DNA of 32,000 nucleotides from Candidatus Saccharimonadota bacterium (GTDB lineage Bacteria > Patescibacteriota > Gracilibacteria > BD1-5 > UBA2023), in the NCBI GenBank assembly GCA_042852035.1, contig BAAFHK010000002.1, forward strand, positions 120,001 to 152,000, read 5' to 3'. Shown in pieces: positions 4,517-32,000 of the stretch. The first letter of the stretch is position 1. Each line of letters opens with the position of its first letter. The notes under the pieces are model-generated. The model was not told the origin of the DNA. It searched no databases and saw only the letters and a program-made list of their open reading frames with translations. The translations under genes and the position numbers were made by a program.

Positions 4517-5068
4517 ATGAAATGACAGCTTTTAGAGGGCAAACATATCCGACTTCGTCTCATGTGTGAGGATGATTTTCCTTATCTAATCGAGGCAAAC
4601 CATGATCCAGATATAGAGCAACTCGCTGGATGAATTTATCCGATGTATGCAGAAGAACTTAAAGAATTCTATGAAAATGAACAGAAGGATGGCGCAATGT
4701 GTTTTATGATTGAAAATAAAAAAACATGAGAAATAATTGGAGAGGTTGGACTTCATGAGATTCGCCAATGAGATAAGACAGCTGAAGTGAGCATTACTAT
4801 TTTCAAAAAATTGAACCAGAATAAATGATATGGTTCAGACGCTCTGGATGCTCTTCTTCGATATGCATTTTATGGACTTTCTTTGCGAAAACTTATAGCA
4901 TGGATTTATGCTCCAAATGAAAGATCTATCGGGCTTTTTAAGAAATTCTGATTTAGCCTCTCAGGAAGTCTCAAGGCACATAGGCTGTATAGAGGGAGAT
5001 ATGAAGATACTCTTATTTATGAAAAATTTCGAAGTGAGACCTACGCTAATTTTTTAGGAGATGAATAA
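4517..5068 (+). CDS. GNAT family N-acetyltransferase (RimJ/RimL-like)
   Basis: 183 aa. The N-terminus LEGKHIRLRLMCEDDFPYL is typical of RimJ/L-type GNATs. The acetyl-CoA motif NQNK-[TGA=G]-YGSDAL is present, with 6 in-frame TGA. The stop overlaps the next start (ATGAATAA). Confidence 0.8.
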
Positions 5069-6053
5069 TTTAGCTGAATCTTCTTCATCTGTTACGGTTA
5101 TTCCTCTTGGAGATACGATATTTCGAGGAACTCTTATCTCTTATGAGCTCGCTCAAATAATCGAGTGATCAAAAGGAGATAATTCTATCCTATTTTTTTA
5201 TAATAGAAGATGATCTGGGAGAGCCTGGATATGTAAGGATTGTGGATATTTCTCGAAATGTCCAAATTGTGATATTGCTCTCGCATATCATGGATATCCT
5301 CATAAACAACTTGTTTGTCATCACTGTAATTTTCGTAGTGAAATAATTCTTTCCTGTCCTTTATGTAGAGGGGTTGAATTTCAGGAAGTTTGAATTGGAA
5401 TACAAAAGATAGTAAGCGATCTCGAAAGAAACTTTCCAAATCGAAAAATCCTTCGCATAGACTCTGATTCAAATGATAAAAAATCCGTTCTTCATAAAAA
5501 AATAGATTGATGTCAGCTCATCGTTTCGACCTATGCTGGGATTAGTCTTGTTCACTCAGAGAATGTAGGAGCAGTGGTATTTCTTCTTTTTGAATCGGAC
5601 TTAACACTTCCAGACTATCGTATGGAAGAGGATCTCTATCATACCCTTGAATATGCTAAAAAATCCTGAAAGGAAATGTATATTCAAACCTATGTCCCAG
5701 AACATCCACTTCTTACCACTCTTACAGAAGGGAATTATCGAGATTTTCTTCATTATATAAGCGAAGAGAGAAAAAAATTTTCATATCCTCCGTATGTTGA
5801 TTATGTAACTATTCGTATCCATGATGTTTCCAGGGATAAGCTTGAAAATATGAAAAATAAACTTATCAATAAGATAATCACCCTTCAGGATGGCACCAAT
5901 ATTGCCTTTTTTGATTATGGTGCAATCGAAAAATATCAATGAGAATGGGTAGTAAAAATATTTCTTAAGTGAAACAAAATAGAGAACTTCCTCAGTCAAT
6001 TTGAGGTTGAGCTGTTAAAAAATCGCAGCATTACCCTTGACTGGAACTCATAG
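5061..6053 (+). CDS. priA: PriA (primosomal protein N') C-terminal remnant: Cys-rich Zn region + C-terminal domain, no helicase lobe 1
   Basis: 330 aa, collinear with roughly the last 310 residues of E. coli PriA. It has FFYNRRGSGRAWICKDCGY and four CxxC pairs (CKDC, CPNC, CHHC, CPLC), then GIGIQKI, PEHPLL and YPPY. There is no Walker A/B region. Motif V/VI equivalents are degenerate (STYAGIS, EYAKKSGKE). Confidence 0.8.
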
Positions 6054-7747: not shown

Positions 7748-7896
7748 AATGAATGAAAAAATAAGCCGAGAGCGGCCTATATATTATCATGGGTCACTTC
7801 TTTACGTGTTCCTGACCAGGGAACAATATTACGATACAACGAATCTTATTTTTTTGCAAAGAATTGCTCTTGCAGGAAGTAAAGTTTTATGTAGGG

Positions 7897-8274
7897 CTAT
7901 TCATCTGGTATTTGGCCAATACCTCGTATGAGGTTAAGTTTTTGAGATTGTTGGTATTTTTGGACTCATTCAAGTTCGAGACGGACCTGCTTGTGTCTTT
8001 GAAAGCGTTCGATTTCTTTCGCGGCATCATAATGATTTTTTACATCCTTAAGTGTATCAGCAAGTTCGAGCACCCGATCAAGGATAGCTCGGTTATTCGC
8101 ATCAATTTCTTTTCGCGCCATAACCATCTCCACGATATATATATCCCAGTTATCGAGAATATACTGTTGTCGATCAGGAGTAAGTGCATGAAAAATCACT
8201 GCTATATTATGGCAATCTTCTTCTGAAAGTGGGCACCTGTCCAAGAGTGTCTGGAGACGAGTATTCGGCGGCAT
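7897..8274 (-). CDS. Hypothetical protein (orphan, 125 aa in code 25; 102 aa if the TGA at 7966-7968 terminated)
   Basis: ATG at 8272-8274. The ORF MPPNTRLQTLLDRCPLSEEDCHNIAVIF... is predicted helical, with no motif I recognise. The first TAA/TAG in frame is TAG at 7897-7899. Confidence 0.55.
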
Positions 8275-8292
8275 AAGGCGGTACGGTCGAAT

Positions 8293-8327
8293 AAAAAAAC
8301 CAATACTTTTTATTGTATCGGTTTTTT
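8293..8327 (-). terminator. Rho-independent terminator-like hairpin between the two orphan genes
   Basis: On the minus strand: A-run, ACCGATAC, 8-nt loop, GTATTGGT (8 bp including one G-U), then TTTTTTT. It lies 20 nt after the TAG of the upstream gene. Confidence 0.55.
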
Positions 8328-8347
8328 GATATTTGCAAGGATATATT

Positions 8348-8668
8348 CTACGCTGCTAATAGTTCCTCACTATCGTTAGCTCACTTTCTTCATGTATCTG
8401 CTATTTTTCCAACTCTTCCATCTTGTAACATAACTCGACTGATTCGTATGCTAAATTCATTCTGTCCGTTGAGTATAGCTTCTACTTCTTCTTTTAATAC
8501 AGGGATAAAGCTTCTTCGTACATCTGGCGTCATCTGTGCTACAATAGCGTGAAGTCGATCAACTACTGGGAGCATTTTTTCTGGAAGACGAGAGAGAAGC
8601 TTCTGTGCTTCTGTAAGGGAGGGATCCTCTCTTCCTAAATCGAGATGATTGAGTGTACGGTGGTTCAT
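8348..8668 (-). CDS. Hypothetical protein (orphan, 106 aa in code 25; 92 aa if the TGA at 8390-8392 terminated)
   Basis: ATG at 8666-8668. The ORF MNHRTLNHLDLGREDPSLTEAQKLL... has no recognised motif. The first TAA/TAG in frame is TAG at 8348-8350. Confidence 0.55.
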
Positions 8669-8674
8669 AATCGT

Positions 8675-8703
8675 ATAATACTGTAATTTCCCAGAAATTG
8701 CAA
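8675..8703 (-). promoter_or_regulatory. Sigma-70-like promoter TTGCAA-17-TATTAT ending 6 nt before the ATG (leaderless geometry)
   Basis: Minus strand reads TTGCAA (8698-8703), a 17-nt spacer, TATTAT (8675-8680), ACGATT, then ATG (8666-8668). No SD-like sequence is present. Confidence 0.4.
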
Positions 8704-8832
8704 ATTTTATAAATATTTTTATAAAAAAAGCAAGTCATTTTCTCAAAAATGATTGGCAGATTATGGGAGTTTTTTAGGATTTTGCAAGAGATTTTCAATT
8801 TTTCCTCTCCTTCTTCACTTAAGGAGAAAGAC

Positions 8833-20286: not shown

Positions 20287-20952
20287 ATGGCTGTTTCTAA
20301 AGCAAAAAAAGTAGAACAACTTGCTGCACTCGAGGCTCATCTCAAAGATGCAAAGTCAGTTGCTTTTACTTCAAATCAAAAGGTAACTGTAGCAGAAGTA
20401 TCTTCACTTAAGAAAGATCTTCGCGCCCAGAATGCTCTCTTCCTCATTGCAAAAAAGACTCTTATTCGTATTGCATTTAAGAATGTTTATGGTGTCGAAC
20501 TCGATATCTCTACACTTCCAGGACAAGTTGCCCTTGTTATTGGTAAGGGTGATGCTATCGCACCATTTGGTGTTGCTAATAAATATGCTAATGAATGGAA
20601 GAAAGAAGAAAAAATGGTATTCGTAGGTGGATATATGGATGGACGACTTATGGATGGTGCTGAGACAAAGAAGCTCGCTACTCTCCCTTCTCGTGAGGTT
20701 CTCCTTGCGAAACTCCTTGGTTCTATGATGTCTCCACTTTCTGGTCTTGCTCGATTCTTCGATGCAGCAAAGAAAGACCTCGAAACAAAGAATCTTACCA
20801 AAGTTGGTGATCTCACTATCGCAGCCCCAGAAGCTCCAAAGGCTCCAGAAACTGCAAGTGTTGCTTCTCCTGCTGTAAATGAGGAGGCTCCAGCTACTGT
20901 AGAAGAATCTGCTCCAGTTGAATCTGCTCCAGAAGCTCCAAAGGCCGAATAA
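20287..20952 (+). CDS. rplJ: 50S ribosomal protein L10 with Ala/Pro/Glu-rich C-terminal extension
   Basis: 221 aa from ATG 20287 (MAVSKAKKVEQLAALEAHLKDAKSVAF...). The track's upstream extension from 20212 is not credible. There is no in-frame TGA. TAA stop. Confidence 0.93.
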   Translation: MAVSKAKKVEQLAALEAHLKDAKSVAFTSNQKVTVAEVSSLKKDLRAQNALFLIAKKTLIRIAFKNVYGVELDISTLPGQVALVIGKGDAIAPFGVANKYANEWKKEEKMVFVGGYMDGRLMDGAETKKLATLPSREVLLAKLLGSMMSPLSGLARFFDAAKKDLETKNLTKVGDLTIAAPEAPKAPETASVASPAVNEEAPATVEESAPVESAPEAPKAE

Positions 20953-21127
20953 TTTTCGTTTCACATCCTACTCATGATTCATGGGTAGGTGCGAGGTGAA
21001 AATCTCGATTGGTTCCATAACTTGCGAGCAGAGTAAAGCAATTCTTGCTACTCATCCTACATGGATTTCTTTGCTCCGCTTGTAGTGCGGTCCAAAATTA
21101 ACTTTTATTTTATTATTTTTTTATACT

Positions 21128-21511
21128 ATGGCTGATCTTAGTAAAAATGCTGAGAAAGTTCTCGAACTCGTCGAGGGTCTCACAATCGTAGAACTCGCTG
21201 ATCTCGTCTCTGCTATGGAGGAGAAATTCGGTGTTTCTGCAGCTGCTCCTGTAGCAGTTATGGCTGGTGGTGCTGCACCTGCAGGTGGTGGTGATGAAGA
21301 AAAAACATCATTCGATGTTGTTATGACTTCTGCTGGTGGTCAAAAGATTGCTGTTATTAAGGTTATTCGTGAAATCACTGGTCTTGGACTTGGTGAAGCG
21401 AAGGCTCTTGCTGACAACGGTGGTGATATCAAGAAGGGAATCAAGAAAGATGAAGCTGAAAAAATCAAGAAGCAACTTGAGGAATCAGGTGCTACAGTTG
21501 AGCTTAAGTAA
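21128..21511 (+). CDS. rplL: 50S ribosomal protein L7/L12
   Basis: 127 aa with [26 protein letters not shown], an Ala/Gly hinge, and [24 protein letters not shown]...ATVELK. There is no in-frame TGA. Confidence 0.97.
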
Positions 21512-21520
21512 GTTTTCTTT

Positions 21521-21552
21521 AAAAACCCCCTCGAATATTCGAGGGGGTTTTT
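21521..21552. terminator. Strong bidirectional rho-independent terminator
   Basis: AAAAA-CCCCCTCGAATATTCGAGGGGG-TTTTT is a perfect palindrome with stem at 21526-21547. It lies between convergent rplL and the exonuclease gene. Confidence 0.85.
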
Positions 21553-21587
21553 AAATATATATTTTTCAGGCTATATATGAGAGGTAT

Positions 21588-22190
21588 CTATCGTTTAAAT
21601 TTTAGAAACTTAAGGAGCGCTTCTCTCGTTGCCATAATGTCTCATCTCGCAGTATGAGCACTATATCCGGTTATTCGAAGTACTTCAGCAAGGCCCCCAG
21701 GTTTTGAGAGGCTTGTTGACTTAAAGGGGAGGGGAATTTTATTGTATCGTGCTATAGCATTTGCTTGGTTTGCAATAGATTTTGTATCTATAATATCATT
21801 TCAAAGCTTCATATAAAGATTGGGCTTTCTTGCATTCGCAAAAACTGATGCGAGAAATGCAATATCAGCAGCAACAAATTGTCATACAAGTATTGGTTTT
21901 TGCTCTCATGGAAAGTGTGTTTCAAGAAATCATTGAAAGTATTCACAAAATTCTTCATAGGATTTTCCAGCAGCAATACGATCAAGGGTGAAGCCATTGT
22001 ATTCAAGGGCTTTTTGGTCGATAATAATGTTATCGGGTGGAAGGAGATCCATAAAAAATTCTCAGATGATCTGAAATTGGGCATCCATGACAACGGCTCA
22101 AACTTCAATAACTCCATGTTGAAACGGATTAAGTCCAGTCATTTCGAGATCAAGTATAAGATATACTCAAGGAGATGTTGTATCAGGCAT
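21588..22190 (-). CDS. DEDDh 3'-5' exonuclease (DnaQ/epsilon-like)
   Basis: 200 aa. Exo I is LILDLEMTGLNP, Exo II is GQFVAADIAFL and Exo III is YSAHTAR-G-DIMAT. The track ORF 21809-22117 is in the wrong frame. Confidence 0.8.
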
Positions 22191-22292
22191 AGAAAACTTG
22201 ATTTTTAAAGATTCTTGTCTACTCTTCTTTTTATACGATAAAGAATGATAGTTCTTATACGAAAAAAGTCAAAAAATTTCACTTTACAAATT

Positions 22293-22892
22293 ATGACAAA
22301 GCCATTTATAGTCCAAGATCCCTATTTTGATAAAGCAAAGAAACTCGGGTATCGAGCTAGAAGCGCATTTAAGCTTATTGAGATTGATGAAAAATTTCAT
22401 GTAATAAAGCCATGAATGTGTGTTCTTGATGTTGCGAGCGCACCTTGAAGTTTTATTCAGGTGATTTCAAAGATTGTGGGAGAAGAATGAAGAGTAATCG
22501 GAGTTGATATACAATCAATTAAGTCTTTTGGGCAAAAAAATATTTCATTCCTTCAGGCAAGTATCTTTGAGTATGATAAAATCCGAACTTTTATTCAAGA
22601 GAGGGGAATTGAACAATTTGATCTTATTACTTCAGATATAGCACCAAATACTTCAGGTATTACCTGAGTCGATCAATATAGATCTATTGAATTGAACATT
22701 GCTATTTTAGATGTGGCTGAAGTATTTCTCAAAAAATGATGAAATCTTATTCTTAAGGTATTTGTTTGAGAGGATGTGGAAGATCTTATAGCTCCTGTGA
22801 AACAAAAATATACAAAACTTACTCGTTTTAAACCAAAAGCTTGTCGTGATCGAAGTTTCGAAGAGTACTTCATCTGTCAATGAAAGAAATAG
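22293..22892 (+). CDS. rlmE: 23S rRNA (uridine2552-2'-O)-methyltransferase RlmE/FtsJ
   Basis: 199 aa with YRARSAFKLIEIDEKF, VLDVASAP-G-SF, SDIAPNTSGIT-G-VD, KVFV-G-ED, and KPKACRDRSFEEYFIC. Confidence 0.9.
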
Positions 22893-22963
22893 TCTGTCAA
22901 ATCTAATTATTTGGTAAAACTAACATTTATCTATAATAGAATCTATCAATAGAGATTCATTTT

Positions 22964-24609
22964 ATGAAGTATACCTTTCTTGCTATATCATTTTTTTGGA
23001 TATCTTGAGTATCAGCATTGGAGAGATTTGATTCATCCTGTTATCGCGAAGTGGCTACAATTGATACGAATTCTTGAGTTTCATCGGTTCAAGTACAAAA
23101 TACTACTGATGATATTTTTTTTAGTACCACTTTTTGAGATATCCTTCCTTCAAGGTTAGAAAATACAAAAAAAATCCACCCATTCAATATACCTCAAAAG
23201 ATTTTGTTGATATCCCACTTCTTGATGATAGTGATCCTTATACCTGAATTGAAATTGATCCAACACTTTTTTTGAAGGGTGAAGTGAGTTACGTTTTTGA
23301 TTTAGGAAAAATATATACTCGTTGACAAATAAAACCAGAAATAGGATTTGTGACGGATAGAAATATCTCAGTAAGTCTATCTATTGATGGAAACTTTTTT
23401 ATCCCAGTAACCCTTGGGAGTATAGGAAACTTTGACTTTCGTTTCATAAAAATAGGATTTTCTGGGAATTGAAAACAAACAGAAATCACAAGATTCCATA
23501 CACTCAATTTTTTTCAAAATATACAAAATACTTACGTATTCTCTTCACCTGGTTGAGAGGTAAGGATATTTCGGTGATATGCATGTACTTCCCAGGGTCA
23601 TCAGTACTCTATGTTAGATCGCCCGAAACTTCCATATACGGAGATTATCCCAGATAAAAGCTACACACCTATTTTTTTACCAAATCCTCTTTATAAAGAT
23701 GATGGTGATAGTGATGGATTTGAGAATATTCGTGATAATTGTCCTATCGTAAATAACCCAGATCAAAATGACAGAAATAATGACGGTATCTGAGATGCTT
23801 GTGATGATTCTGATAGGGATAATAGGTATGGATTTGATGACAACTGTCCTACTATAAGTAATCCAGATCAAGCTGATAAAAATGCGAATAAAATCGGAGA
23901 TGCCTGTGAATTTGATACCGATAAGGATGGCGTTTTCGATGATACTGATAATGCCATTCATATGAAAAATCCAGATCAAGCTGATATTGATAGGGATGGA
24001 ATTGGTGATGTGATGGATAATTGTAATCTCTATAATCCAGATCAATTAGATTTGGATAAAAATGGAAGAGGTGATGTGTGCGATAAGAATGAAGAATATC
24101 GCAGAACAAATGATTTCGATAAAGATACAATTTTGGATTATCTCGATAACTGCAGTAAAATGAGTAATCAGAATCAAGCTGATTCTGATATTGATGGCAT
24201 CGGTGACGTATGTGATAACTGTAAAGAGTTAAAAAATCCAGAACAATCAGATATTGATGTGAATGGAGTAGGTGATAGTTGTGAAGATGTTGATCATGAT
24301 GGAGTAGTATGATGGAGAGATAATTGTCCGAGTATCTCGAATCCCGATCAAAAAGACAGTGATAATAATAGGGTGGGAGATATCTGTAGTGATATTGATG
24401 GAGATTGAAAATATGATGAGGTTGATAATTGTCCAACGGTTTTTAATGATACTCAATATGATATCGATAAAGATGGAAAGTGAGATGTCTGTGATGCCGA
24501 TGATAATAGGTTTATCGAATCAAATAAATATGTCTTTATGGCTCTTGTTGGTATTTTTGGGCTTATTTTTATCGGAGGTATTATTGTGCTTATTCGTAAA
24601 CTTCAGTAA
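22964..24609 (+). CDS. Surface protein: signal peptide + discoidin-like domain + thrombospondin type 3 Ca-binding repeats + C-terminal TM anchor; reading frame broken at an A8 tract
   Basis: Frame 2 (22964-23305) encodes MKYTFLAISFFWISGVSA... and dead-ends at TAG 23303-23305. Frame 1 is open from 23125 to TAA 24607-24609. It encodes VSYVFDLGKIY...SLSIDGNFF (F5/8-type-C-like), then about 14 DxDxDGxGDxCD / DNCPxxxNPDQ units. It ends in YVFMALVGIFGLIFIGGIIVLI. A -1 shift in A8 (23167-23174) joins the two frames. Confidence 0.75.
23167..23174 (+). repeat. Homopolymeric A8 tract at the frame junction (A_AAA_AAA slippery heptamer in the 0 frame)
   Basis: The sequence reads aat-aca-aaa-aaa-atc in the signal-peptide frame. 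One extra A, or a -1 slip, gives aaa-aaa-aat-cca-ccc, which is the downstream frame. Confidence 0.9.
23698..24507 (+). repeat. Tandem coding repeats (thrombospondin type 3 / Asp-rich Ca-binding loops)
   Basis: Recurrent nucleotide units are present. For example, aatccagatcaagctgat occurs at about 23862 and again at about 23968. They encode NPDQADxDxDGIGDxCDNC. This explains the long spurious antisense ORFs. Confidence 0.8.
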
Positions 24610-24620
24610 TTTTTCAACCT

Positions 24621-27600
24621 ATGACACAAGTTTCTCTTCTATCTTTTCTCAGACGCATCTCGTGGCTCATATCCTTTCTTCTTGGTGCTTTTTCTGCTCT
24701 CCTCCTTTCAGATTTATCTTCTTGAAGTTATACGACTGGTGCTGAGAATTTCTTTGAATGGGGATGGATATGGGGAGTTATATTTATGCTTCTTTTTAAG
24801 AAATTTCTTCTCTCAGAAAATATTATATCAGCTATTTCTTTTGAGCCAGTACCTCTAAAGAATGACATTTGAGTATCTTCACCGCATCAAAATATTGATG
24901 TTCAATCATTTCCACTAATACAGTTGAGTGAAATATCTGATATGAGAGGTAATTTTAAAGAAAATATCCAAGCCGAATCGAAACAAGAAATAGAAAAAAA
25001 ACAGGTGACACCGGTGATTCCTCCTCCACCGGAAGTAAAGAAACCAAATTGGATTGTTGCTTTCTTTTCCGATCGACCGCTTGCAAAGATTTGAGGTATT
25101 ATCCTCTTTTTGGCTGCATTTTTCTTTCTCTCACTTGTATGGTCAATTGTTGGCTCTATAGGAAAAGTTATTATAGGTCTTATTTTCGGTTTCTCTCTCT
25201 ATGTTATTTGAGTTTGGATGGATAAAAAATGACATATTACAGAGTCTCGTACTCTTTTATGAGTTGGTATCGCTATAAATACTCTTACTATTCTTTCTTG
25301 AAGATGGATTATTGGGGATACATCAGGAAGTATTTTTTCAGATACGCTTACTCTTATCTTTCTTATTCTAAATACTCTTTTTGCTGTAGCTACTGGACTC
25401 GTATATAACTCGAGAACTTTTCTTATTTTCTCATTTGTTTTTGCTTATTTTATACCGTTCATTGTTCGTTCAGAATCAGATAGCTCCATCCTTATAATGT
25501 TCTATACGCTCACAATTTCTCTCGGTTGATATTTGCTAACCTGGCTTTTTCTACAGAGAAATGAGCGTATTGATGATATGAAGTGGCTATTTCGAACAAT
25601 TATTATAGGAAGCCTTATGCTTCTTGGATTAACGGGTTTTGGTGTAGAGAGTGTAATGGAGCTTATTTTGATATCTATTCTGAGCTCTATTCTTACAACC
25701 ACAGGAATATTTATCTCAAGAAAGACTGAACTTCGTGACGAATCAGTTCCAAGTCTACTCATTTCTGCTTATATAATTCTTATATGTTCAATCTTCTGAA
25801 TCTGAGATAAAGAACAGGCAACAATAATCGTTAGTTTTATTTTCACTCTTCCGATTTTGGTTTATACAGCTCTATTTATGGTGCGAGTGAATCTTGTAAT
25901 ATATACTTGGATTTTGCTTATTCCGTTGTGAGTTGCATTAATTCTTTTTTGAGTATTTGGAATTCCTTCGTTAGTGCTCATTCTTGTCCCTATTGTTCTT
26001 ATATACGGATTGGCGTGATTATTCCTTGTTTCTTTTATGACAGAAGTTCTGCGCTATGTCTTTTTCCTAGTTATTAGTGCTTTTATTTTTATTTGTTCTG
26101 TTGCCATAGATGGATCTCACTATGAGATTTCTCTATCAAGCCGTTGGGTTATAAGTATTTCTTCACTCGGATTTTTTCTCCTTTCACTCTGGTCGAGTTA
26201 CAAATATAAATTAATCCATCTTTCACTCATTGCTCTTATATCTTCCTCAATTATATTTACGACTTCTCTTATTCCAGAATGGGAAGCATCATGGATGATG
26301 TATATTCTTTTCCTTGCAGTGACCTTTTCTTATCCTTTTTTCGTTAGAAAATCAATCAAAGAGCAATTTTCCTCATTTATCAGCTATCAAGTAGTGGCAA
26401 ATCTTTTTATGATAGGAGAGCTATTTTACCTCGGGAGAAATATCTGGTTTACAAGAGATGGGAGTTCACTAGTTACCCTTGGGATAATTGTTTTTCTTCT
26501 TTCAATAGCATCACTCTTCTACTCATTTATGCTTATTCGAGTCACTTTGAGTAATGGAAGCCTTTCATCTCTGAGTTCTGATCTAAAAAGGAATGCTACG
26601 ACACTGCTCTGAATCCCGCTATCCCTTTTTACTCTTGCAATTGCTGTGACTTTCTCAGAAAGCCCACTTGTGGTATCGACGGCATGGGTAGTTGAATCAG
26701 TAGTGCTTGCATATTATTCTTCAAAACAGAGGAATCAATGAATGCTTATAGGAACAATTATATTAGCAAGCATATGAATATTGAGGCTTATACCATTTTT
26801 TGATAGTATATACACTGGAGAGTATCTTGCTCTTGTTCCCATAACTATCATTGCACTGAGTCTATATTGTACACTACTATTTATTGTTGATAGAGAAAAA
26901 AATCCACTTGCAAATGTTTATGATTTTATTCATATCTTTGGCATAAGTATGGTTGCTTATGCTCTTATGGAAATTATTCCTCATACCCAGACTGGATGGA
27001 GCCTACTTTGACTTAATATATTTCTTCTTCTTTCAACTTGGTTTTATACAAAAGTATCGAGCAAGATTATCTCCTTGTGGATGATATTTTTATCTCTTAT
27101 TATTTACTTTTATCACCTAGTTCGAGTTGAGGAACTCAGTATGAATCTTGGACCAGTATTTATACAACTTACAGCTCTTTCAATTGGTACATTTGCCGTT
27201 TGGTATATGAAATCAAAAAACCAATTCTGAAAGTATGCATTTATTTATGCTTTCATTATGTTTCTTTTGATTACGTCTATTTATGTAAATCAACTGACGA
27301 ATAATATTTTTGCCGTAACCATCTACCTTACCATTATTGCTACGATTTATCTCCTATTTTGAATCAATAATAATGTTGCAAAGTTTAGGACTATCTGACT
27401 TTATATCGGAAGCGGGGTACTTATAAAAATTCTGTTTTATGATATTTGGGCCTGAGTTGATAATCTCATCATTCGTGTTGTAGCTCTCATGATTACATGA
27501 GGTATTATGATTGCTATTTCTCAACTTTATGGAAGGAGAGTAAACCGACCATGGAATGAGGAATTCGCTCTTTCTAACTTTGCGAATAATTCCCAAAGTG

Positions 27601-27968
27601 CAATGATCATTAATGATGAAATGCAATGAGAGCATCCATCTTCTCCTGATGACATGCCATTCGATGAAAGTATTTCAAATGATCTAAAAGAGTTTGATAT
27701 AAGTCATATTTCTTCGATTGAGCTTCAGAATTTATCTTGAGAAATAATTCTTCTCTCTCGTAGGGCAGGAATAATTCGTGTTGCAAACTACATTGTAAAA
27801 CATCTCGGAAAGACAGAATTTGTACCAAATGAACTTGAAGCAGCTCTAAAAAACCTTATTCCTCACATACAGAGCTCTCTCCCCAAAAAGGAACTTGATA
27901 CTATCTTATTAAAAATTCATAATTGGGTACTTCTATGATGAAAAATAGTTATAAAAGAAAAAATATAA
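24621..27968 (+). CDS. Large polytopic membrane protein, DUF2339-like
   Basis: 1115 aa, open in frame 0 with TGA=Gly. It has dozens of hydrophobic helices. The N-terminal motif is FFSDRPLAKI-G-GIILFLAAFFFLSL. The C-terminal motif is FRTI-G-LYIGSGVLIKILFYDIWA. A soluble tail of about 110 aa follows. TAA stop at 27966-27968. The start lies 11 nt after the upstream stop. Confidence 0.8.
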
Positions 27969-28381
27969 AGTGGTTTTATTTCCTTCTTTCCTGATTCAGG
28001 TATTTTTTCCTTTTACTTTGAGTCGGATTTTTTCTCCATTTTCTTTTACTTACTCTAAGTATTGCTTTTACAAAATCTAATACAGATGTAGAGAGAAAAT
28101 ATGCGTATACAACTGATGGATGTAGTATGTTTATCGACGGGGACTACAGGGAATGCTGTGAGGCTCATGATCGTGCATATTGGGAAGGTGGGCGACTTTA
28201 TAAGAAGCTTGTAGCTGATGCTCTTCTCTATGCTTGCATAGCAGAGAAGTGACATAATGTTCGAGAAAATTTTATGTTTCCTGCTGTACTCATTGGTGGA
28301 AATCCAGGTTTTCCTACGAAATTTCGTTGGGGTTATGGTTACCCATATCCATATTATGATATTCGATGAGTTCAGAAATAA
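27935..28381 (+). CDS. Small membrane-anchored protein with secretory-PLA2-like CCxxHDxxY motif
   Basis: 148 aa from ATG 27935, overlapping the DUF2339 3' end by 34 nt. It has an N-terminal TM (WFYFLLSGFRYFFLLLGVGFFLHFLLL). It then reads YTTDGCSMFIDGDYRECCEAHDRAYWEGG, which resembles the sPLA2 catalytic His-Asp network CCxxHDxCY. TAA stop. Confidence 0.5.
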
Positions 28382-28483
28382 GTGTTTATATTATATTCTA
28401 AATTTGTAAATACTATATATTCATATTTATTTGAGTGCATTAGTAACTCATGATATGATAATCACTAATTAACCATTTTTTTT

Positions 28484-31108
28484 ATGTATCTTAAGGGTAT
28501 ATTTGCTGTTGCTCGTTTTTTCTTACGCCTCCGTTACCGAGTGCGGATTGAGGGAATGAAGGAATTTGATCATCCTGGTCCAATTATTGTATTTCCGAAT
28601 CATCCAGCACTTGTTGATCCGATGATTATGATTACCGAGATTGGGAGAAAAAAAATACTTTCACCCGTAATGACCGAAACGTATATAAATACTCCGTGAC
28701 TCGGTCCAATTTTGCATGCTATGAAGACGGTTCCAGTAGGTGATCTAGCGCGATGATGAAACATTGATGATGTAGAAAAGGCTTTCGAAGGTATCCGAAA
28801 GGGAATTGAAAACAAGCAAAATATTCTCATCTATCCATCATGACATATTTATGTTCAACCATTTGAACATATTGTTGGGAAAAAAATGGCTTTTGAAATT
28901 GTTTCTCGACTCCCTGACGATGCTAAGATTATTGTGGCTCGTACGAAATGACTTTGGGGAAGCATATGGGGAAAGGCTTATACTGGAGAATCACCAAAAC
29001 TCATGAAGGTCCTCACAAAGTCTTTGTGGTATATTTTCTCTAATGGGATATTCTTTGTGCCCAAACGGGAAGTTACTATAGAGTACAAGGATATGACAGA
29101 ACAACTCCGAATGTGGAAAAAGGAGGGGTTAGATGCATTCAATCAGAATCTTCAAGACTATTATAATCATTCCTGAAATGAAGAATGTCGTTTCATTAAA
29201 CATTATTTTTACCATAATGATGTCCTAGGAAAGAAAGAGCCTGAGGCAATCGCGTGATCCATTGCTGAGCTTGAGAAAAAAACAGAGGTGAATATAGATA
29301 TTCCTGCTGAAACCCTAAAAGATATTAGGAAAAAAGTTGCCACAATAAAAAAGATTGATTTGAAAGATATAAAAGATGAGTCGAATCTTGTTCTTGAGCT
29401 CCATTGTGATTCACTTGATATGGCAGAAATCAAATCTGTAATACAGAAGGATTATCCGAATTCTTCGAACCCCCCGATTGGTTTACTTAAGACTCCTAAG
29501 GATTTAGCATATATGTCTCTCTGAGTTTCGCTCTGAGAAGAGAAGCTCCCTCGTTGCACTTTTCAGCCAAGAACTGAAACCAATATAGTCTATAAGTATA
29601 GTGAGGGGGATACGATTCTTTCTGAAGCAAAAAAGGTTTTTAAGAGTGAAAAAAATAGTCCTTTTCTCTATGATGCTATACTCTGAGAAATGACGAGAGA
29701 TGAATTTTTACTACGTTCATATGTTATATCAACCTATCTTTCTCGTATAAAAGATGACCGAATTGGTATCATGATACCAGCACTATCTTCTACTTCTTTG
29801 CTTCTTTTTTGAGTTTATCTCTCCTGAAAGCTCCCTGTTATGCTTAATTGGACGGTGTGAGAAAAGTCATTTGCGCATTGTATGAATTTTGCCGGACTTG
29901 AAGTCATACTCACGAGCAAAAAGTTTTATGAAAAAATCCAATCTCCTTGGCTTGCTGCTTTTGAATGAAAAATGGTATTTATTGAGGATATTATAAAGGA
30001 TCTATCATTTTCAATGAAAGGTATAGCTGTTATTAAAAAGTTTTTTTTCTTACTCCCAAAGAAGAGGGAGGATGCGGTAATGCTTTTTACATCATGAAGC
30101 GAATCTCTTCCTAAGGCAATTCTTCTTACTCATAAGAACATTCTTTGTGATATTGAGTGAGCTCTTGCTCTTGTTCCTTTTAAGAAAAATGAGACAATTA
30201 TTTGATTCCTCCCACCATTTCATAGTTTTGGTTTTACAATAAATACGATTTTTCCATTCGTAGCACCAGTGCAAGCTGCCTATACACCAGACCCTGGTGA
30301 TGCTCGAACTATAGGAAAGATTCTTTTACACACTCAAGCGAGTATTGTATCAGCAACTCCAACATTTCTTCGTATGATTCTTTCTGGAAATGAGGCTCAC
30401 TCACTCACTTCACTCAAATTTGCTTTTGTGTGAGCAGAGAAATGTAACGATGAAGTATTTTCTCTTTTTCGAAAGAAGTGCCCTGAAGCTATTATTCTTG
30501 AATGATATGGTATTACTGAGTGTAGTCCTATAGTGACGGTGAATCCTCTTTCAAAACAACTGAAATGATCAGCAGGAAAATTTCTTCCTACAATAATACC
30601 AATGATTCGATCACTTGATAATAAAGAGTCTCTCAAAGCATGAGAACAATGAATGATTTACATTACGGGCCCAAGTATATTCTGATGATATATTGACCCA
30701 AATTTGGAAAGTCCTTTTGATGAATTTGATTGAAAAAAATGGTATAAAACTTGAGATCTTGGTTATATAGATGAAGAATGATTTCTCTTTATTACTGGCA
30801 GACTCAAGCGGTTTGTGAAAATTGCCTGAGAAATGATATCACTTCCTTTTATCGAGGGTATTCTTCTTGAAAAATATGGAAATCCTGAGGTTACAACTCT
30901 TGCAATTGAGGCAAAAGAAGAAAATGGGAATGTCACAATTGTTGCATTCACAAATTTTGAAGAAAGTGTTGATGTAATCAATGATTACATACATACCCAT
31001 GGTGCATCAAATCTTGTAAAAATTGCAAGAGTAGAGAAGCTAAATGCTATTCCTATTCTTTGAACGGGAAAGACCGATTATAAGCAGTTAAAATCACTGA
31101 TTCAGTAG
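28484..31108 (+). CDS. Tri-domain fusion: lysophospholipid acyltransferase (PlsC-like) + acyl-carrier domain + acyl-AMP/ACP ligase (Aas-like)
   Basis: 874 aa. The acyltransferase domain has FPNHPALVDP (HX4D) and IYPS-G-HI. The carrier domain has LELHCDSLDMAEIKSVI (DSL phosphopantetheine site). The adenylation domain has [64 protein letters not shown] and L-G-TGKTDYK. TAG stop. Confidence 0.88.
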
Positions 31109-31186: not shown

Positions 31187-32000
31187 ATGCAAAACAAACC
31201 TCATAATCCTATAATCAGGAATCTTACACGTATCTCACGAGAATCATCAAAAAGTTTCGAAGATTTTTTTGATTGGAATCAGTATAAGAAAGATGATGGA
31301 CAATACTACATGCCCCCAGAATTACTCTCGATATATGGATCAGAGTTATATGAAAAACTTACTGAGAAACAACTCCGAGAGCTCACCCGAATCGAAGCCA
31401 TACAAACACTTTATCTCTATGCCTATGCAGAAAGTGTGATGTGTTACTATATGGCACGCCATCTGGTAAAATCAGACTTTTGAAGTGAAGAACATGCTTT
31501 TATCCTCAGGGAACAAATCGAAGAGTATCGGCATCAGGATATGTTTCTCCGTGCATTAGAAATCCTTGGGAAAGATTATAAACCAATGTCAAAATTCACG
31601 AAATGGTGGACAGGATTTGAGGCAATAGTACTTCCGCCAAAGATTTTCTTTCTGCTTCAAATTGCAATTGAACTTGTAACACGTGAGATTTGAAGACTTA
31701 CATTTCCAGATGAGAGAATCCACCCGCTTGTCCGAGATCTCTGTATGATTCATGAAAGGGAAGAGGCTCGACACGTTACCTTTTCTAATGCATATATAGA
31801 AAATGCCTATAAAAGAGATGGATTTTTTATGAGAACAATTGCTGGTATATGCATAGCTCTCGATATAGCGTTTCTCCACCATTTCTACGTTTACCCCTGA
31901 ATGTATAAAAAGGCCTGAATCTCCGAAGATCTCAAATATTACAAAACAGCGAAGAAATTCATTTTAAGAAGTGAAGTGAAAAATATGATGACAGGAAGTG
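31187..32000 (+). CDS. Ferritin-like diiron oxygenase (AurF / desaturase-like), 3' partial
   Basis: Open to the window end. It has two E...ExxH-type ligand motifs, LREQIEEYRHQDMF and MIHEREEARHVTF, in a helical context. This matches AurF-family / diiron-carboxylate enzymes. Confidence 0.65.

What the first reader, a model, noticed from the sequence alone, without database searches (positions are those of the whole stretch)
23122..23305. Adhesin-like TSP3-repeat gene split by an A8 tract: phase variation, programmed -1 slippage, or homopolymer error
The only good signal peptide (22964 onward, frame 2) is out of frame with the 480-aa body, which runs in frame 1 to 24609. The body has no ATG or signal peptide of its own before 23611. 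Both frames are open only between 23125 and 23305. Inside that overlap lies A8 (23167-23174), forming the slippery heptamer A_AAA_AAA in the 0 frame. A -1 ribosomal slip, transcriptional slippage, or a 9th A fuses the two parts exactly (..ENTKK|NPPIQYTSKDF..). Homopolymer switches in surface proteins are a classical phase-variation device. For an epibiotic CPR cell, such a switch would gate a Ca-binding host-contact protein sitting directly upstream of the putative lipid-salvage genes.
Basis: seen in the sequence. Interest (0 to 1): 0.7.

Follow-up and report, generated by a model that had tools for sequence, protein, structure and literature searches.

The report
One-base frameshift in surface protein gene
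A conserved cell-surface protein gene of a Gracilibacteria (CPR) bacterium is split in two by one missing base at a run of eight A's; relatives all have the gene intact, so this is either a very recent slippage mutation or an assembly miscount, not a special decoding device.

Summary
The genome reads TGA as Gly (code 25). ATG 22964 opens a frame-2 ORF that stops at 23305. A 494-codon frame-1 ORF is open from 23125 to 24609. A8 lies at 23167-23174 in the overlap.

The two ORFs are one gene. Adding one A gives a 548-aa protein that aligns without any gap to intact 547-548-aa orthologues at 60-69% identity. The upstream ORF carries the signal peptide plus about 50 residues of the mature N-domain.

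All ten orthologous loci read at DNA level are single-frame. The closest read T-E-K-N (ac[agc] ga[ag] aaa aat), so the long tract and the break are specific to this lineage or assembly.

Programmed recoding is disfavoured. There is no stimulatory RNA structure, no conservation, and the run is only 8 nt. A8/T8 runs occur at chance frequency, and the other nine coding ones (13 in all) are in frame.

The copy keeps 134 of 137 strongly conserved positions and has no further defect, so it is not an old pseudogene. It has, however, evolved about twice as fast as its sister copy.

Best reading (about 0.5): a genuine, very recent or polymorphic slippage-type null/OFF allele. Main rival (about 0.33): a consensus miscount. 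Only read data can decide. Interest is low to moderate.

The parts
22964..23020 (+). Start codon (ATG 22964) and predicted Sec signal peptide, MKYTFLAISFFWISGVSA|LE, in frame 2
   Evidence: Read directly from the sequence. A hydrophobic N-terminus followed by a small-x-small site is conserved in all full-length orthologues. No signal-peptide predictor was available, so the cleavage site is an inference.
23021..23166 (+). First ~50 residues of the mature N-terminal domain (FDSSCYRE...NTTDDIFF...ILPSRLENT), frame 2. Includes the family-invariant Cys26.
   Evidence: Family alignments A2 and A3 show an invariant Cys, a conserved D-FF motif and the LPSR motif. All three are encoded upstream of the break.
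23115..23122 (+). T8 run encoding the conserved DDIFF motif. Its last base starts the TAG (23122-23124) that closes frame 1 upstream.
   Evidence: The same T8 is present in L007, L008 and L010.
23167..23174 (+). A8 tract and site of the one-nucleotide deficit. It reads A_AAA_AAA in frame 2. One extra base here restores the ancestral frame.
   Evidence: The A9 fusion aligns without gaps to P0005, L007 and L008. Orthologues read ac[a/g/c] ga[a/g] aaa aat cc at this position.
23175..23305 (+). Out-of-frame tail of the as-is product: 43 frame-2 codons (IHPFNIPQKILLISHFLMIVILIPELKLIQHFFGRVKGVTFLI) ending at TAG 23303-23305.
   Evidence: No family member matches this tail. Over the same DNA the homologues match frame 1 instead.
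23173..23697 (+). Remainder of the N-terminal domain in frame 1 (fusion residues 71-245). It is a galactose-binding-like (CBM32 / F5-8 type C) beta-sandwich and contains the second conserved Cys (C208).
   Evidence: PDB profile hits to CBM32 modules, best E = 0.017. AlphaFold model of the homologue P0001 at pLDDT 78.8, with Foldseek top hits CBM32 / F5-8C, best E = 1.3e-4. Precomputed PF00754 hits in several family members.
23698..24522 (+). Thrombospondin type 3 (calcium-binding) repeat region, 8 Pfam-matched stretches, frame 1. Boundaries are approximate.
   Evidence: Pfam PF02412 TSP_3, E = 2e-43, 8 stretches.
24523..24609 (+). C-terminal hydrophobic anchor (YVFMALVGIFGLIFIGGIIVLI), a short basic tail (RKLQ) and the stop codon at 24607-24609.
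   Evidence: Translation. The C-terminus is conserved in all orthologues.

Best explanation
Positions 22964-24609 are a single gene for a conserved Gracilibacteria surface protein. Its parts, in order, are a Sec signal peptide, a CBM32/discoidin-like domain, eight TSP3 calcium-binding repeats and a C-terminal membrane anchor. In this genome the gene is one nucleotide short inside or at the A-tract 23167-23174. There are two possible routes. In the first, the ancestral ACA GAA AAA AAT (T-E-K-N) mutated GAA to AAA, which created an unstable A9 that then lost one A by replication slippage. In the second, the single G was deleted outright, which gives exactly AC-A8-T. As written, the DNA encodes a 113-aa secreted fragment with a 43-residue nonsense tail, and the 478-residue remainder is not translated. 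I take this to be a real null/OFF allele that is evolutionarily very recent or still polymorphic, sitting at a slippage-prone run. Such a run can revert by +1 A, and RNA-polymerase +1 A insertions or ribosomal -1 slips on A_AAA_AAA would give a small leak of full-length T-K-K-N protein. I do not take it to be a conserved or specially evolved recoding or switching device. SHOWN: the two ORFs are one gene; the position and size of the defect; its absence from all relatives examined; the absence of stimulatory elements; the retention of conserved residues. INFERRED: that the deletion exists in the cells' DNA; that it is reversible; that there is a leak.
For: One gene: the A9 fusion (548 aa) aligns with zero gaps to P0005/L006 (60%), P0152/L007 (69%) and P0153/L008 (61%). 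More than 100 full-length family members cover the fusion end to end. The invariant Cys and the D-FF motif lie upstream of the break, and the rest of the domain lies downstream. Lineage-specific: ten orthologous loci (L001-L004, L006-L011) are single-frame at the junction. Not an old pseudogene: only 3 of 137 columns with >=90% conservation deviate (F27Y, D283S, D404N), within the 0-7 range of intact relatives, and there is no other stop or indel over 548 codons. Assembly otherwise clean: every other gene in the window is intact, and the other nine coding 8-nt runs are in frame. An independent Logan assembly of run DRR350542 is 100% identical over 1,901 nt, including a T8 run. Weakened or altered selection on this gene only: the window branch carries 59 unique changes against 28-31 in sister L007 (p = 0.001-0.004). 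L007, L008 and L006 are clock-like with one another, and the flanking RlmE (6 vs 4) and DUF2339 (26 vs 27) are symmetric. Runs of >=9 A/T are about 4-fold depleted across the clade (8-to-9 ratio 0.10 against about 0.39 for the earlier steps). That fits a newly formed A9 being unstable. Literature: poly(A) runs in 5' coding regions frameshift at 1e-3 to 1e-4 in M. hominis vaa (PMC524362) and about 1000 times the point-mutation rate in L. monocytogenes inlA (PMC2831843). Transcriptional +1 insertions in A/T runs rise exponentially with run length (PMC5574713).
Against: No read-level data could be obtained, so a consensus miscount explains the same sequence equally simply. No second assembly of this species covers the tract. 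The rate acceleration could reflect diversifying selection on a surface protein and may have nothing to do with the frameshift. An intact, well-conserved gene carrying a single homopolymer frameshift is also the classic signature of an assembly error. Leak by slippage on only 8 A's is likely small. In Buchnera no transcript-level restoration of a frameshifted gene was detected genome-wide (PMC5574713).
Confidence: 0.5

Rival explanations
1. Assembly or sequencing consensus error. The organism's DNA has A9 (or ACA GAA AAA AAT) and an intact 548-aa gene, and the deposited contig undercounts by one base at its longest class of homopolymer.
For: The gene is otherwise perfect: it aligns without gaps to orthologues and keeps its conserved residues. 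The break is unique to this assembly among all relatives. The defect sits in one of the longest homopolymers of the window, and no run of 9 or more appears anywhere in the 32 kb.
Against: The other nine coding 8-nt runs and all other genes are in frame. An independent Logan assembly reproduces 1.9 kb of neighbouring sequence exactly, including a T8 run. The lack of runs >=9 is clade-wide and not peculiar to this assembly. The gene-specific rate acceleration would need a separate explanation.
Confidence: 0.33
2. Evolved phase-variable contingency locus. The A-tract is maintained as an ON/OFF switch (A9 ON, A8 OFF) that gates a host-contact protein, as in Mycoplasma hominis vaa.
For: The run lies in the 5' coding part of a surface-protein gene. 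The gene is intact apart from the switch. Faster evolution with retained core residues is what intermittent OFF states could produce. There is precedent in vaa, where 8 A is ON and 7 or 9 is OFF at 1e-3 to 1e-4 (PMC524362), and in inlA (PMC2831843).
Against: The closest orthologues (61-69% identity) have an interrupted A5-A7 at the site, and more distant ones have none. So there is no evidence that the tract is maintained. A8/T8 runs are at chance frequency and occur equally in uvrC and other housekeeping genes. Length heterogeneity was not observed because it could not be tested.
Confidence: 0.1
3. Programmed recoding. Expression of the full-length protein normally depends on -1 ribosomal frameshifting at A_AAA_AAA, or on transcriptional slippage, at a set efficiency. 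This would yield both a short product and the full-length protein.
For: A canonical X_XXY_YYZ heptamer lies in the 0 frame. A -1 shift gives exactly the homologous protein. Precedents exist in C. rodentium tssM1 (PMC4256274) and in endosymbiont genes (PMC3017870, PMC5009743).
Against: The 86 nt downstream show no stimulatory structure: MFE -6.7 kcal/mol, z = +0.93, and 166 of 200 shuffles fold at least as well. Upstream there is only a 4-nt AAGG. The site and the two-ORF layout are absent from all ten orthologous loci. The 43-residue 0-frame tail has no homologue. The run is 8 nt, whereas documented transcriptional-slippage sites have 9-11 (PMC5009743, PMC4256274).
Confidence: 0.05
4. Two independent genes: a small secreted peptide (22964-23305) and a separate TSP3 protein that starts at TTG 23134 or ATG 23611.
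For: Candidate start codons exist in frame 1.
Against: The conserved domain spans the break. The body would lack its signal peptide although it carries an extracellular-type architecture and a C-terminal anchor. No + strand promoter-like or terminator-like site lies between 22964 and 23611. No orthologue starts there; the short database products P0156, P0162 and P0167 are gene-calling truncations of in-frame genes.
Confidence: 0.02

Closest known systems
Mycoplasma hominis vaa adhesin poly(A) frameshift switch (Zhang & Wise 1997, as summarised in PMC524362); also L. monocytogenes inlA 5' poly(A) tract (PMC2831843)
   Same: An A-run of 8-9 nt sits in the 5' coding region of a surface or adhesion protein gene in a small, AT-rich genome. 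A +/-1 A change toggles between the full-length protein and a short truncated product.
   Different: In vaa the tract is maintained, and ON/OFF variants were isolated at 1e-3 to 1e-4. Here no heterogeneity has been observed, and the tract is not present in the closest relatives. The in-frame length would be 9 here rather than 8.
Frameshifts in poly(A)/poly(T) tracts of endosymbiont genes (Buchnera, Blochmannia) partly rescued by transcriptional slippage (PMC3017870; Tamas et al. 2008 as cited in PMC5009743)
   Same: Reduced, AT-rich genome. A single indel lies in a homopolymer of an otherwise undegraded gene. The required correction is a +1 A insertion, which is the predominant transcriptional error in A-runs (PMC5574713).
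   Different: Endosymbiont cases mostly involve runs of >=9-10 nt, and some are conserved across populations or species. Here the run is 8 nt and the frameshift is unique to this genome.
Citrobacter rodentium tssM1 transcriptional frameshifting on A11 (PMC4256274)
   Same: A premature frame break is restored by adding A's within a poly(A) run. Both a short and a full-length product are possible.
   Different: In tssM1 the run is 11 A, slippage is about 20%, both products are required, and the same arrangement is found in Y. pseudotuberculosis tssM3. None of that is shown here.
dnaX / IS3-type programmed -1 ribosomal frameshifting
   Same: The heptamer fits the X_XXY_YYZ pattern (A_AAA_AAA) in the upstream frame.
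   Different: There is no downstream hairpin or pseudoknot, no convincing upstream SD-like stimulator, no conservation, and no functional 0-frame product.
TSP3-repeat / F5-8 type C (CBM32) surface proteins of Candidatus Gracilibacteria (e.g. NCBI 'thrombospondin type 3 repeat-containing protein')
   Same: After frame repair the gene is a full-length member with the same length, domain order and neighbours (RNase_T - RlmE - this gene - DUF2339).
   Different: It is the only member seen with a broken frame, and its branch is about twice as long as its sister's.

Membership tests
Gracilibacteria signal peptide-CBM32-like-TSP3-TM surface protein family | End-to-end collinearity with full-length members (~540-560 aa in the close subgroup) | tested here: met
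   The A9-repaired product (548 aa) aligns with no gaps to P0005 (547 aa), L007 (548 aa) and L008 (548 aa) at 60-69% identity. The as-is DNA does not meet this feature.
Gracilibacteria signal peptide-CBM32-like-TSP3-TM surface protein family | Domain content: TSP3 repeats, a galactose-binding-like N-domain with two conserved Cys, and a C-terminal TM segment | tested here: met
   Pfam TSP_3 at E = 2e-43 with 8 stretches. CBM32 / F5-8C support is weak to moderate, from a PDB profile search, Foldseek and precomputed PF00754 hits in relatives. The Cys positions are invariant or nearly so.
Gracilibacteria signal peptide-CBM32-like-TSP3-TM surface protein family | Conserved neighbourhood (RNase_T, RlmE upstream; DUF2339 membrane protein downstream) | tested here: met
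SSR-mediated phase-variable (contingency) gene | A hypermutable simple repeat within the ORF whose length change toggles the reading frame | tested here: met
   A8 at 23167-23174; +1 A restores the frame.
SSR-mediated phase-variable (contingency) gene | Repeat-length heterogeneity within or between populations of the same species | not testable with these tools
   There is no read data. No second assembly of the species covers the site.
SSR-mediated phase-variable (contingency) gene | The repeat is maintained in relatives, or long repeats are enriched in surface or contingency genes | tested here: not met
   Orthologues carry gag aaa aat, gaa aaa aat, gag aag aat and similar. A8/T8 count is 14 against 11.25 +/- 5 expected. 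Such runs also occur in uvrC (twice) and other non-surface genes.
Programmed -1 ribosomal frameshift site | Slippery heptamer X_XXY_YYZ in the 0 frame | tested here: met
   A_AAA_AAA at 23167-23173 in the frame-2 register.
Programmed -1 ribosomal frameshift site | A stimulatory element: a downstream stem-loop or pseudoknot, or an upstream SD-like sequence | tested here: not met
   Folding 23175-23260 gives MFE -6.7 kcal/mol, z = +0.93, with 166 of 200 shuffles at least as stable. Only AAGG lies 11-14 nt upstream.
Programmed -1 ribosomal frameshift site | Conservation of the shift site and the two-frame arrangement among orthologues | tested here: not met
   None of the ten orthologous loci has it. 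The >100 database proteins are single-frame products.
Programmed transcriptional slippage site | An A/T run of at least about 9 nt | tested here: not met
   The run is 8 nt. Documented cases have 9-11 (PMC5009743, PMC4256274).
Programmed transcriptional slippage site | An mRNA pool that is heterogeneous in run length while the DNA is uniform | not testable with these tools
   No transcriptome or read data are available.
Homopolymer assembly/sequencing error | Reads or an independent assembly disagree with the contig at the run | not testable with these tools
   The only same-strain contig found (L005, Logan DRR350542) ends at 21547, which is 1.6 kb short of the tract.
Homopolymer assembly/sequencing error | Other homopolymer-associated frame breaks in the same assembly | tested here: not met
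   All other genes are intact. The other nine coding 8-nt runs are in frame.

The most novel reading that the evidence does not exclude
The A-run is a newly born contingency switch in an epibiotic or predatory CPR bacterium. A lineage-specific GAA-to-AAA change would have turned an interrupted run into a hypermutable A9/A8 toggle. That toggle would gate a glycan-binding, calcium-dependent surface protein that is conserved across Gracilibacteria. The gene-specific doubling of the evolutionary rate would then be the footprint of time spent in the OFF state. This would be the first homopolymer phase variation documented in the Candidate Phyla Radiation.
Probability: 0.1. Interest if true: 0.6.

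Novelty: new member of a known kind. Interest (0 to 1): 0.25.

Why it matters
If the deletion is real, a conserved putative host- or prey-contact protein is switched off, or nearly off, in this Gracilibacteria population. It would be a small example of the homopolymer-driven gene inactivation that is well known from mycoplasmas and insect endosymbionts, but not yet documented in CPR bacteria. If it is an artefact, the practical lesson is for annotation. The locus should be annotated as one 548-aa gene, and code-25 MAGs need frameshift-aware curation. In either case the useful by-product is the definition of a conserved Gracilibacteria surface-protein family (signal peptide, CBM32-like domain, TSP3 x8, TM anchor) in a conserved rlmE-X-DUF2339 neighbourhood. 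The finding does not open a new mechanism.

Tried and rejected
- **Same-strain DNA across the tract.** An exact look-up of L7/L12 found Logan contig L005 (DRR350542), which is 100% identical but ends at the hairpin 21526-21555. Look-ups of the code-11 fragments 23962-24312 and 22245-22415 found nothing. An exact DNA pattern spanning the tract found nothing in JGI metagenomes, and the earlier peptide-pattern scan there also found nothing. A full-length protein search returned nothing above 68% identity.
- **Recurrent breaks at the same site.** P0156, P0162 and P0167 begin at fusion residues 60-65, which looked like independent frameshifts. Their DNA shows the N-terminal segment in the same open frame under code 25, so they are gene-calling truncations. 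Rejected.
- **Homopolymer truncation by the assembler.** There are no runs >=9 in the window, but the same sharp drop is seen in 75 kb of relatives from other assemblies. It is therefore not diagnostic.
- **Old pseudogene.** Rejected: 134 of 137 conserved columns are retained, and there is no additional stop or indel.
- **Internal promoter or terminator separating two genes.** None found on the + strand between 22964 and 23611.
- **RNA elements.** No Rfam family is matched anywhere in the window.
- **Pfam on the N-domain of the window protein.** This gave no hit. Fold assignment had to rely on weaker profile and structure evidence.
- **A planned chimeric-query homology search** was dropped as uninformative.
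Full report
**Observation**

The window (35.6% G+C) uses TGA as a sense codon. Reading TGA as sense raises stop-to-stop ORF content from 6,111 aa to 21,553 aa. In the target gene, window TGA codons align with GGA, GGT or GGG in the orthologue L006 at four positions. L006 TGA codons align with window GGA at two more positions. None aligns with TGG. All relatives recovered from genome collections are Candidatus Gracilibacteria MAGs. The code is therefore 25 (TGA = Gly).

Under this code every detail of the finding is correct:
- ATG 22964 opens a frame-2 ORF that ends at TAG 23303-23305 (113 aa).
- Frame 1 is closed by TAG 23122-23124 and then stays open for 494 codons to 24609.
- A8 occupies 23167-23174 and reads A_AAA_AAA in frame 2.
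- One extra A gives a 548-aa product, ...LENTKK|NPPIQYTS....

**Is it more than chance?**

An A8 run on its own is not. The window holds 14 A8/T8 runs against 11.25 +/- 5.0 expected from dinucleotide-preserving shuffles. The nine other coding runs are ordinary in-frame ...KK... or ...FF... codons in genes such as uvrC (twice), the DUF2339 gene and the acyltransferase gene. What is not chance is that homology forces the frame switch to occur inside this particular run.

**The two ORFs are one gene**

- A first homologue, P0001, reads straight through the junction (LPSRLDLNEKNPPLKYTS). On its contig L001 the gene runs in one frame from a signal peptide into the TSP3 repeats.
- Three Gracilibacteria MAG loci (L002-L004) show the same arrangement.
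- An exhaustive profile-free search and a second word-based search revealed more than 100 full-length family members of about 540-640 aa.
- The three closest are P0152/L007 (69% identity), P0153/L008 (61%) and P0005/L006 (60-61%). All three align to the A9 fusion with no gap over 547-548 residues.
- Family alignments show that the upstream ORF is not only a signal peptide. It carries about 50 residues of the mature domain, including the family-invariant Cys (FDxSCF), the D-FF motif and the LPSR motif. The second conserved Cys and the rest of the domain lie downstream of the break. The body alone therefore cannot be a complete product.
- No + strand promoter-like or terminator-like site separates the two parts.

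**What the protein is**

- Pfam finds eight TSP3 (calcium-binding) repeats, E = 2e-43.
- The N-domain has no Pfam hit in the window's copy. A family profile weakly hits CBM32 modules in the PDB (best E = 0.017).
- An AlphaFold model of the homologue P0001 (pLDDT 78.8) matches CBM32 / F5-8 type C / galactose-binding-like domains best (E = 1.3e-4, TM-score about 0.43-0.5 normalised by target).
- Several relatives carry precomputed PF00754 hits.
- With the signal peptide and the C-terminal hydrophobic anchor, this is a type-I-like surface protein with a probable glycan-binding head. 'Adhesin-like' is a reasonable inference but remains untested.
- The neighbourhood RNase_T - RlmE - this gene - DUF2339 membrane protein - ... 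- acyltransferase/AMP-binding (Aas-like) gene is conserved in L008, L009 and L011.

**The break is unique to this genome**

At DNA level, all ten orthologous loci are in frame at the junction:

| Locus | Junction codons |
|---|---|
| L007 | acg gag aaa aat |
| L008 | aca gaa aaa aat |
| L006 | acc gag aaa aat |
| L001 | aat gaa aaa aat |
| L002 | act gag aag aat |
| L004 | aca gag aag aat |
| L003 | aat gcc aaa aat |
| L009 | aca gag aag aat |
| L010 | aga gaa aaa tat |
| L011 | aaa ggt aaa aat |

. Three database products that start exactly at the junction (P0156, P0162, P0167) looked like recurrent breaks. Their DNA shows them to be gene-calling truncations of single-frame genes.

The ancestral state in the close subgroup is T-E-K-N. 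The window's ac-A8-tcc can arise in two ways. GAA may have changed to AAA, creating an A9 that then lost one A. Alternatively the single G of an L008-like aca gaa aaa aat may have been deleted, which gives exactly the observed string. In either case the deficit is one nucleotide within 23165-23175.

**Programmed recoding is disfavoured**

- The 86 nt downstream of the run fold no better than shuffled sequence: -6.7 kcal/mol, z = +0.93, with 166 of 200 shuffles at least as stable.
- Only a 4-nt AAGG lies upstream.
- Neither the site nor a two-frame layout is conserved in any relative.
- The 43-residue 0-frame tail has no homologue.
- The run has 8 A's. Documented transcriptional-slippage sites have 9-11 (PMC5009743; tssM1 has A11 with about 20% slippage, PMC4256274).

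Some leak is still expected from general knowledge. Single-A insertions are the dominant transcriptional error in A/T runs and increase exponentially with run length (PMC5574713). That same study, however, found no transcript-level restoration of frameshifted Buchnera genes.

**Age of the lesion**

The window's copy deviates at only 3 of 137 columns where at least 90% of 21 relatives agree (F27Y, D283S, D404N). Intact relatives deviate at 0-7 of these columns. The copy has no other stop or indel in 548 codons. It is therefore not an old pseudogene.

Its branch is nevertheless about twice as long as that of its sister L007: 59 vs 31 unique changes with L008 as reference (p = 0.004), and 59 vs 28 with L006 (p = 0.001). 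L007, L008 and L006 are clock-like with one another (52 vs 56, 52 vs 51, 56 vs 51). The flanking genes are symmetric (RlmE 6 vs 4; DUF2339 26 vs 27). This gene-specific acceleration at variable positions fits either weakened selection, for example time spent in an OFF state or incipient loss, or diversifying selection on a surface protein. It gives a modest lean towards the frameshift being biological.

**Real or artefact?**

This could not be settled. The same strain is present in run DRR350542: Logan contig L005 is 100% identical over 1,901 nt, including a T8 run. That contig stops at a 30-nt palindrome, 1.6 kb short of the tract. All attempts to reach the tract in another assembly failed.

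Points in favour of a clean assembly:
- No other gene is broken.
- The other nine coding 8-nt runs are all in frame.

The absence of any run of 9 or more in the window is not diagnostic. The same cut-off holds in 75 kb of relatives from other assemblies, where the run-length counts are 329, 135, 52, 20 and 2 for lengths 5 to 9. The 8-to-9 ratio is 0.10 against about 0.39 for the earlier steps. That depletion suggests runs of 9 or more are selected against. An A9 allele would then be both unusual and unstable.

**Verdict**

| Reading | Probability |
|---|---|
| Real, very recent or polymorphic slippage-type null/OFF allele, reversible in principle and slightly leaky, but not shown to be a selected switch | about 0.5 |
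| Consensus miscount | about 0.33 |
| Evolved phase-variation switch | about 0.1 |
| Programmed recoding | about 0.05 |
| Two separate genes | about 0.02 |

The closest known parallels are the M. hominis vaa poly(A) switch, where 8 A is ON and 7 or 9 is OFF (PMC524362), the L. monocytogenes inlA 5' poly(A) tract (PMC2831843), and homopolymer frameshifts in Blochmannia and Buchnera genes (PMC3017870). The finding is a new instance of a known kind of event, in a lineage where such events have not been described. Interest is low to moderate, and read-level data would settle it quickly.

Noticed in passing
window 23115-23122; L007 1175-1189; L008 6145-6159; L010 484-498: A second 8-nt homopolymer (T8) lies 45 nt upstream of the A8 and encodes the conserved DD[IV]FF motif. 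The same T8 is kept in several orthologues, so this gene's 5' part carries two slippage-prone runs.
   Followed up: partly
window (whole) and loci L001-L004, L006-L011: A/T runs drop off sharply at 9 nt across the clade. Pooled relatives (75 kb) have 329, 135, 52, 20 and 2 runs of length 5-9; the window has 182, 80, 37, 14 and 0. The one 9-mer that was located (in L004) is intergenic; the other, in L009, was not located. This suggests selection against runs as long as the RNA:DNA hybrid.
   Followed up: partly
window 22964-24609 versus L007, L008, L006: The target gene has evolved about twice as fast in the window lineage as in its sister (59 vs 28-31 unique amino-acid changes). The flanking RlmE and DUF2339 genes are symmetric, and conserved core positions are retained.
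   Followed up: yes
window 21526-21555: A perfect 30-nt inverted repeat lies just after the L7/L12 gene and is probably a terminator. The independent Logan contig L005 breaks at this point.
   Followed up: partly
window 21588-31108; L008, L009, L011: The gene block RNase_T exonuclease - RlmE (FtsJ) - TSP3 surface protein - DUF2339 membrane protein (1115 aa) - small ORF - acyltransferase + AMP-binding (Aas-like) fusion is conserved across several Gracilibacteria. An AurF-like di-iron oxygenase follows in the window (31187-32000).
   Followed up: partly
window 5061-6053: This 330-aa ORF matches only the PriA Cys-rich zinc-ribbon region and looks like the C-terminal half of PriA. No helicase N-terminal half is visible upstream, where a GNAT acetyltransferase ORF lies at 4517-5068.
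   Followed up: no
window 7784-8832: About 1 kb lies between a membrane-protein gene and a DnaJ-like gene with no convincing ORF and no Rfam match.
   Followed up: no
P0005, P0051, P0092, P0102 and other database proteins; P0001, P0156, P0162, P0167: Public gene calls for this family are often wrong because of code 25. Some are translated with code 4, which puts W where the TSP3 repeats need G. Others are truncated at or after in-frame TGA codons under code 11.
   Followed up: yes
window 20287-21511: The ribosomal protein genes L10 and L7/L12 contain no TGA codons at all, whereas the neighbouring genes carry 4-29 each.
   Followed up: no
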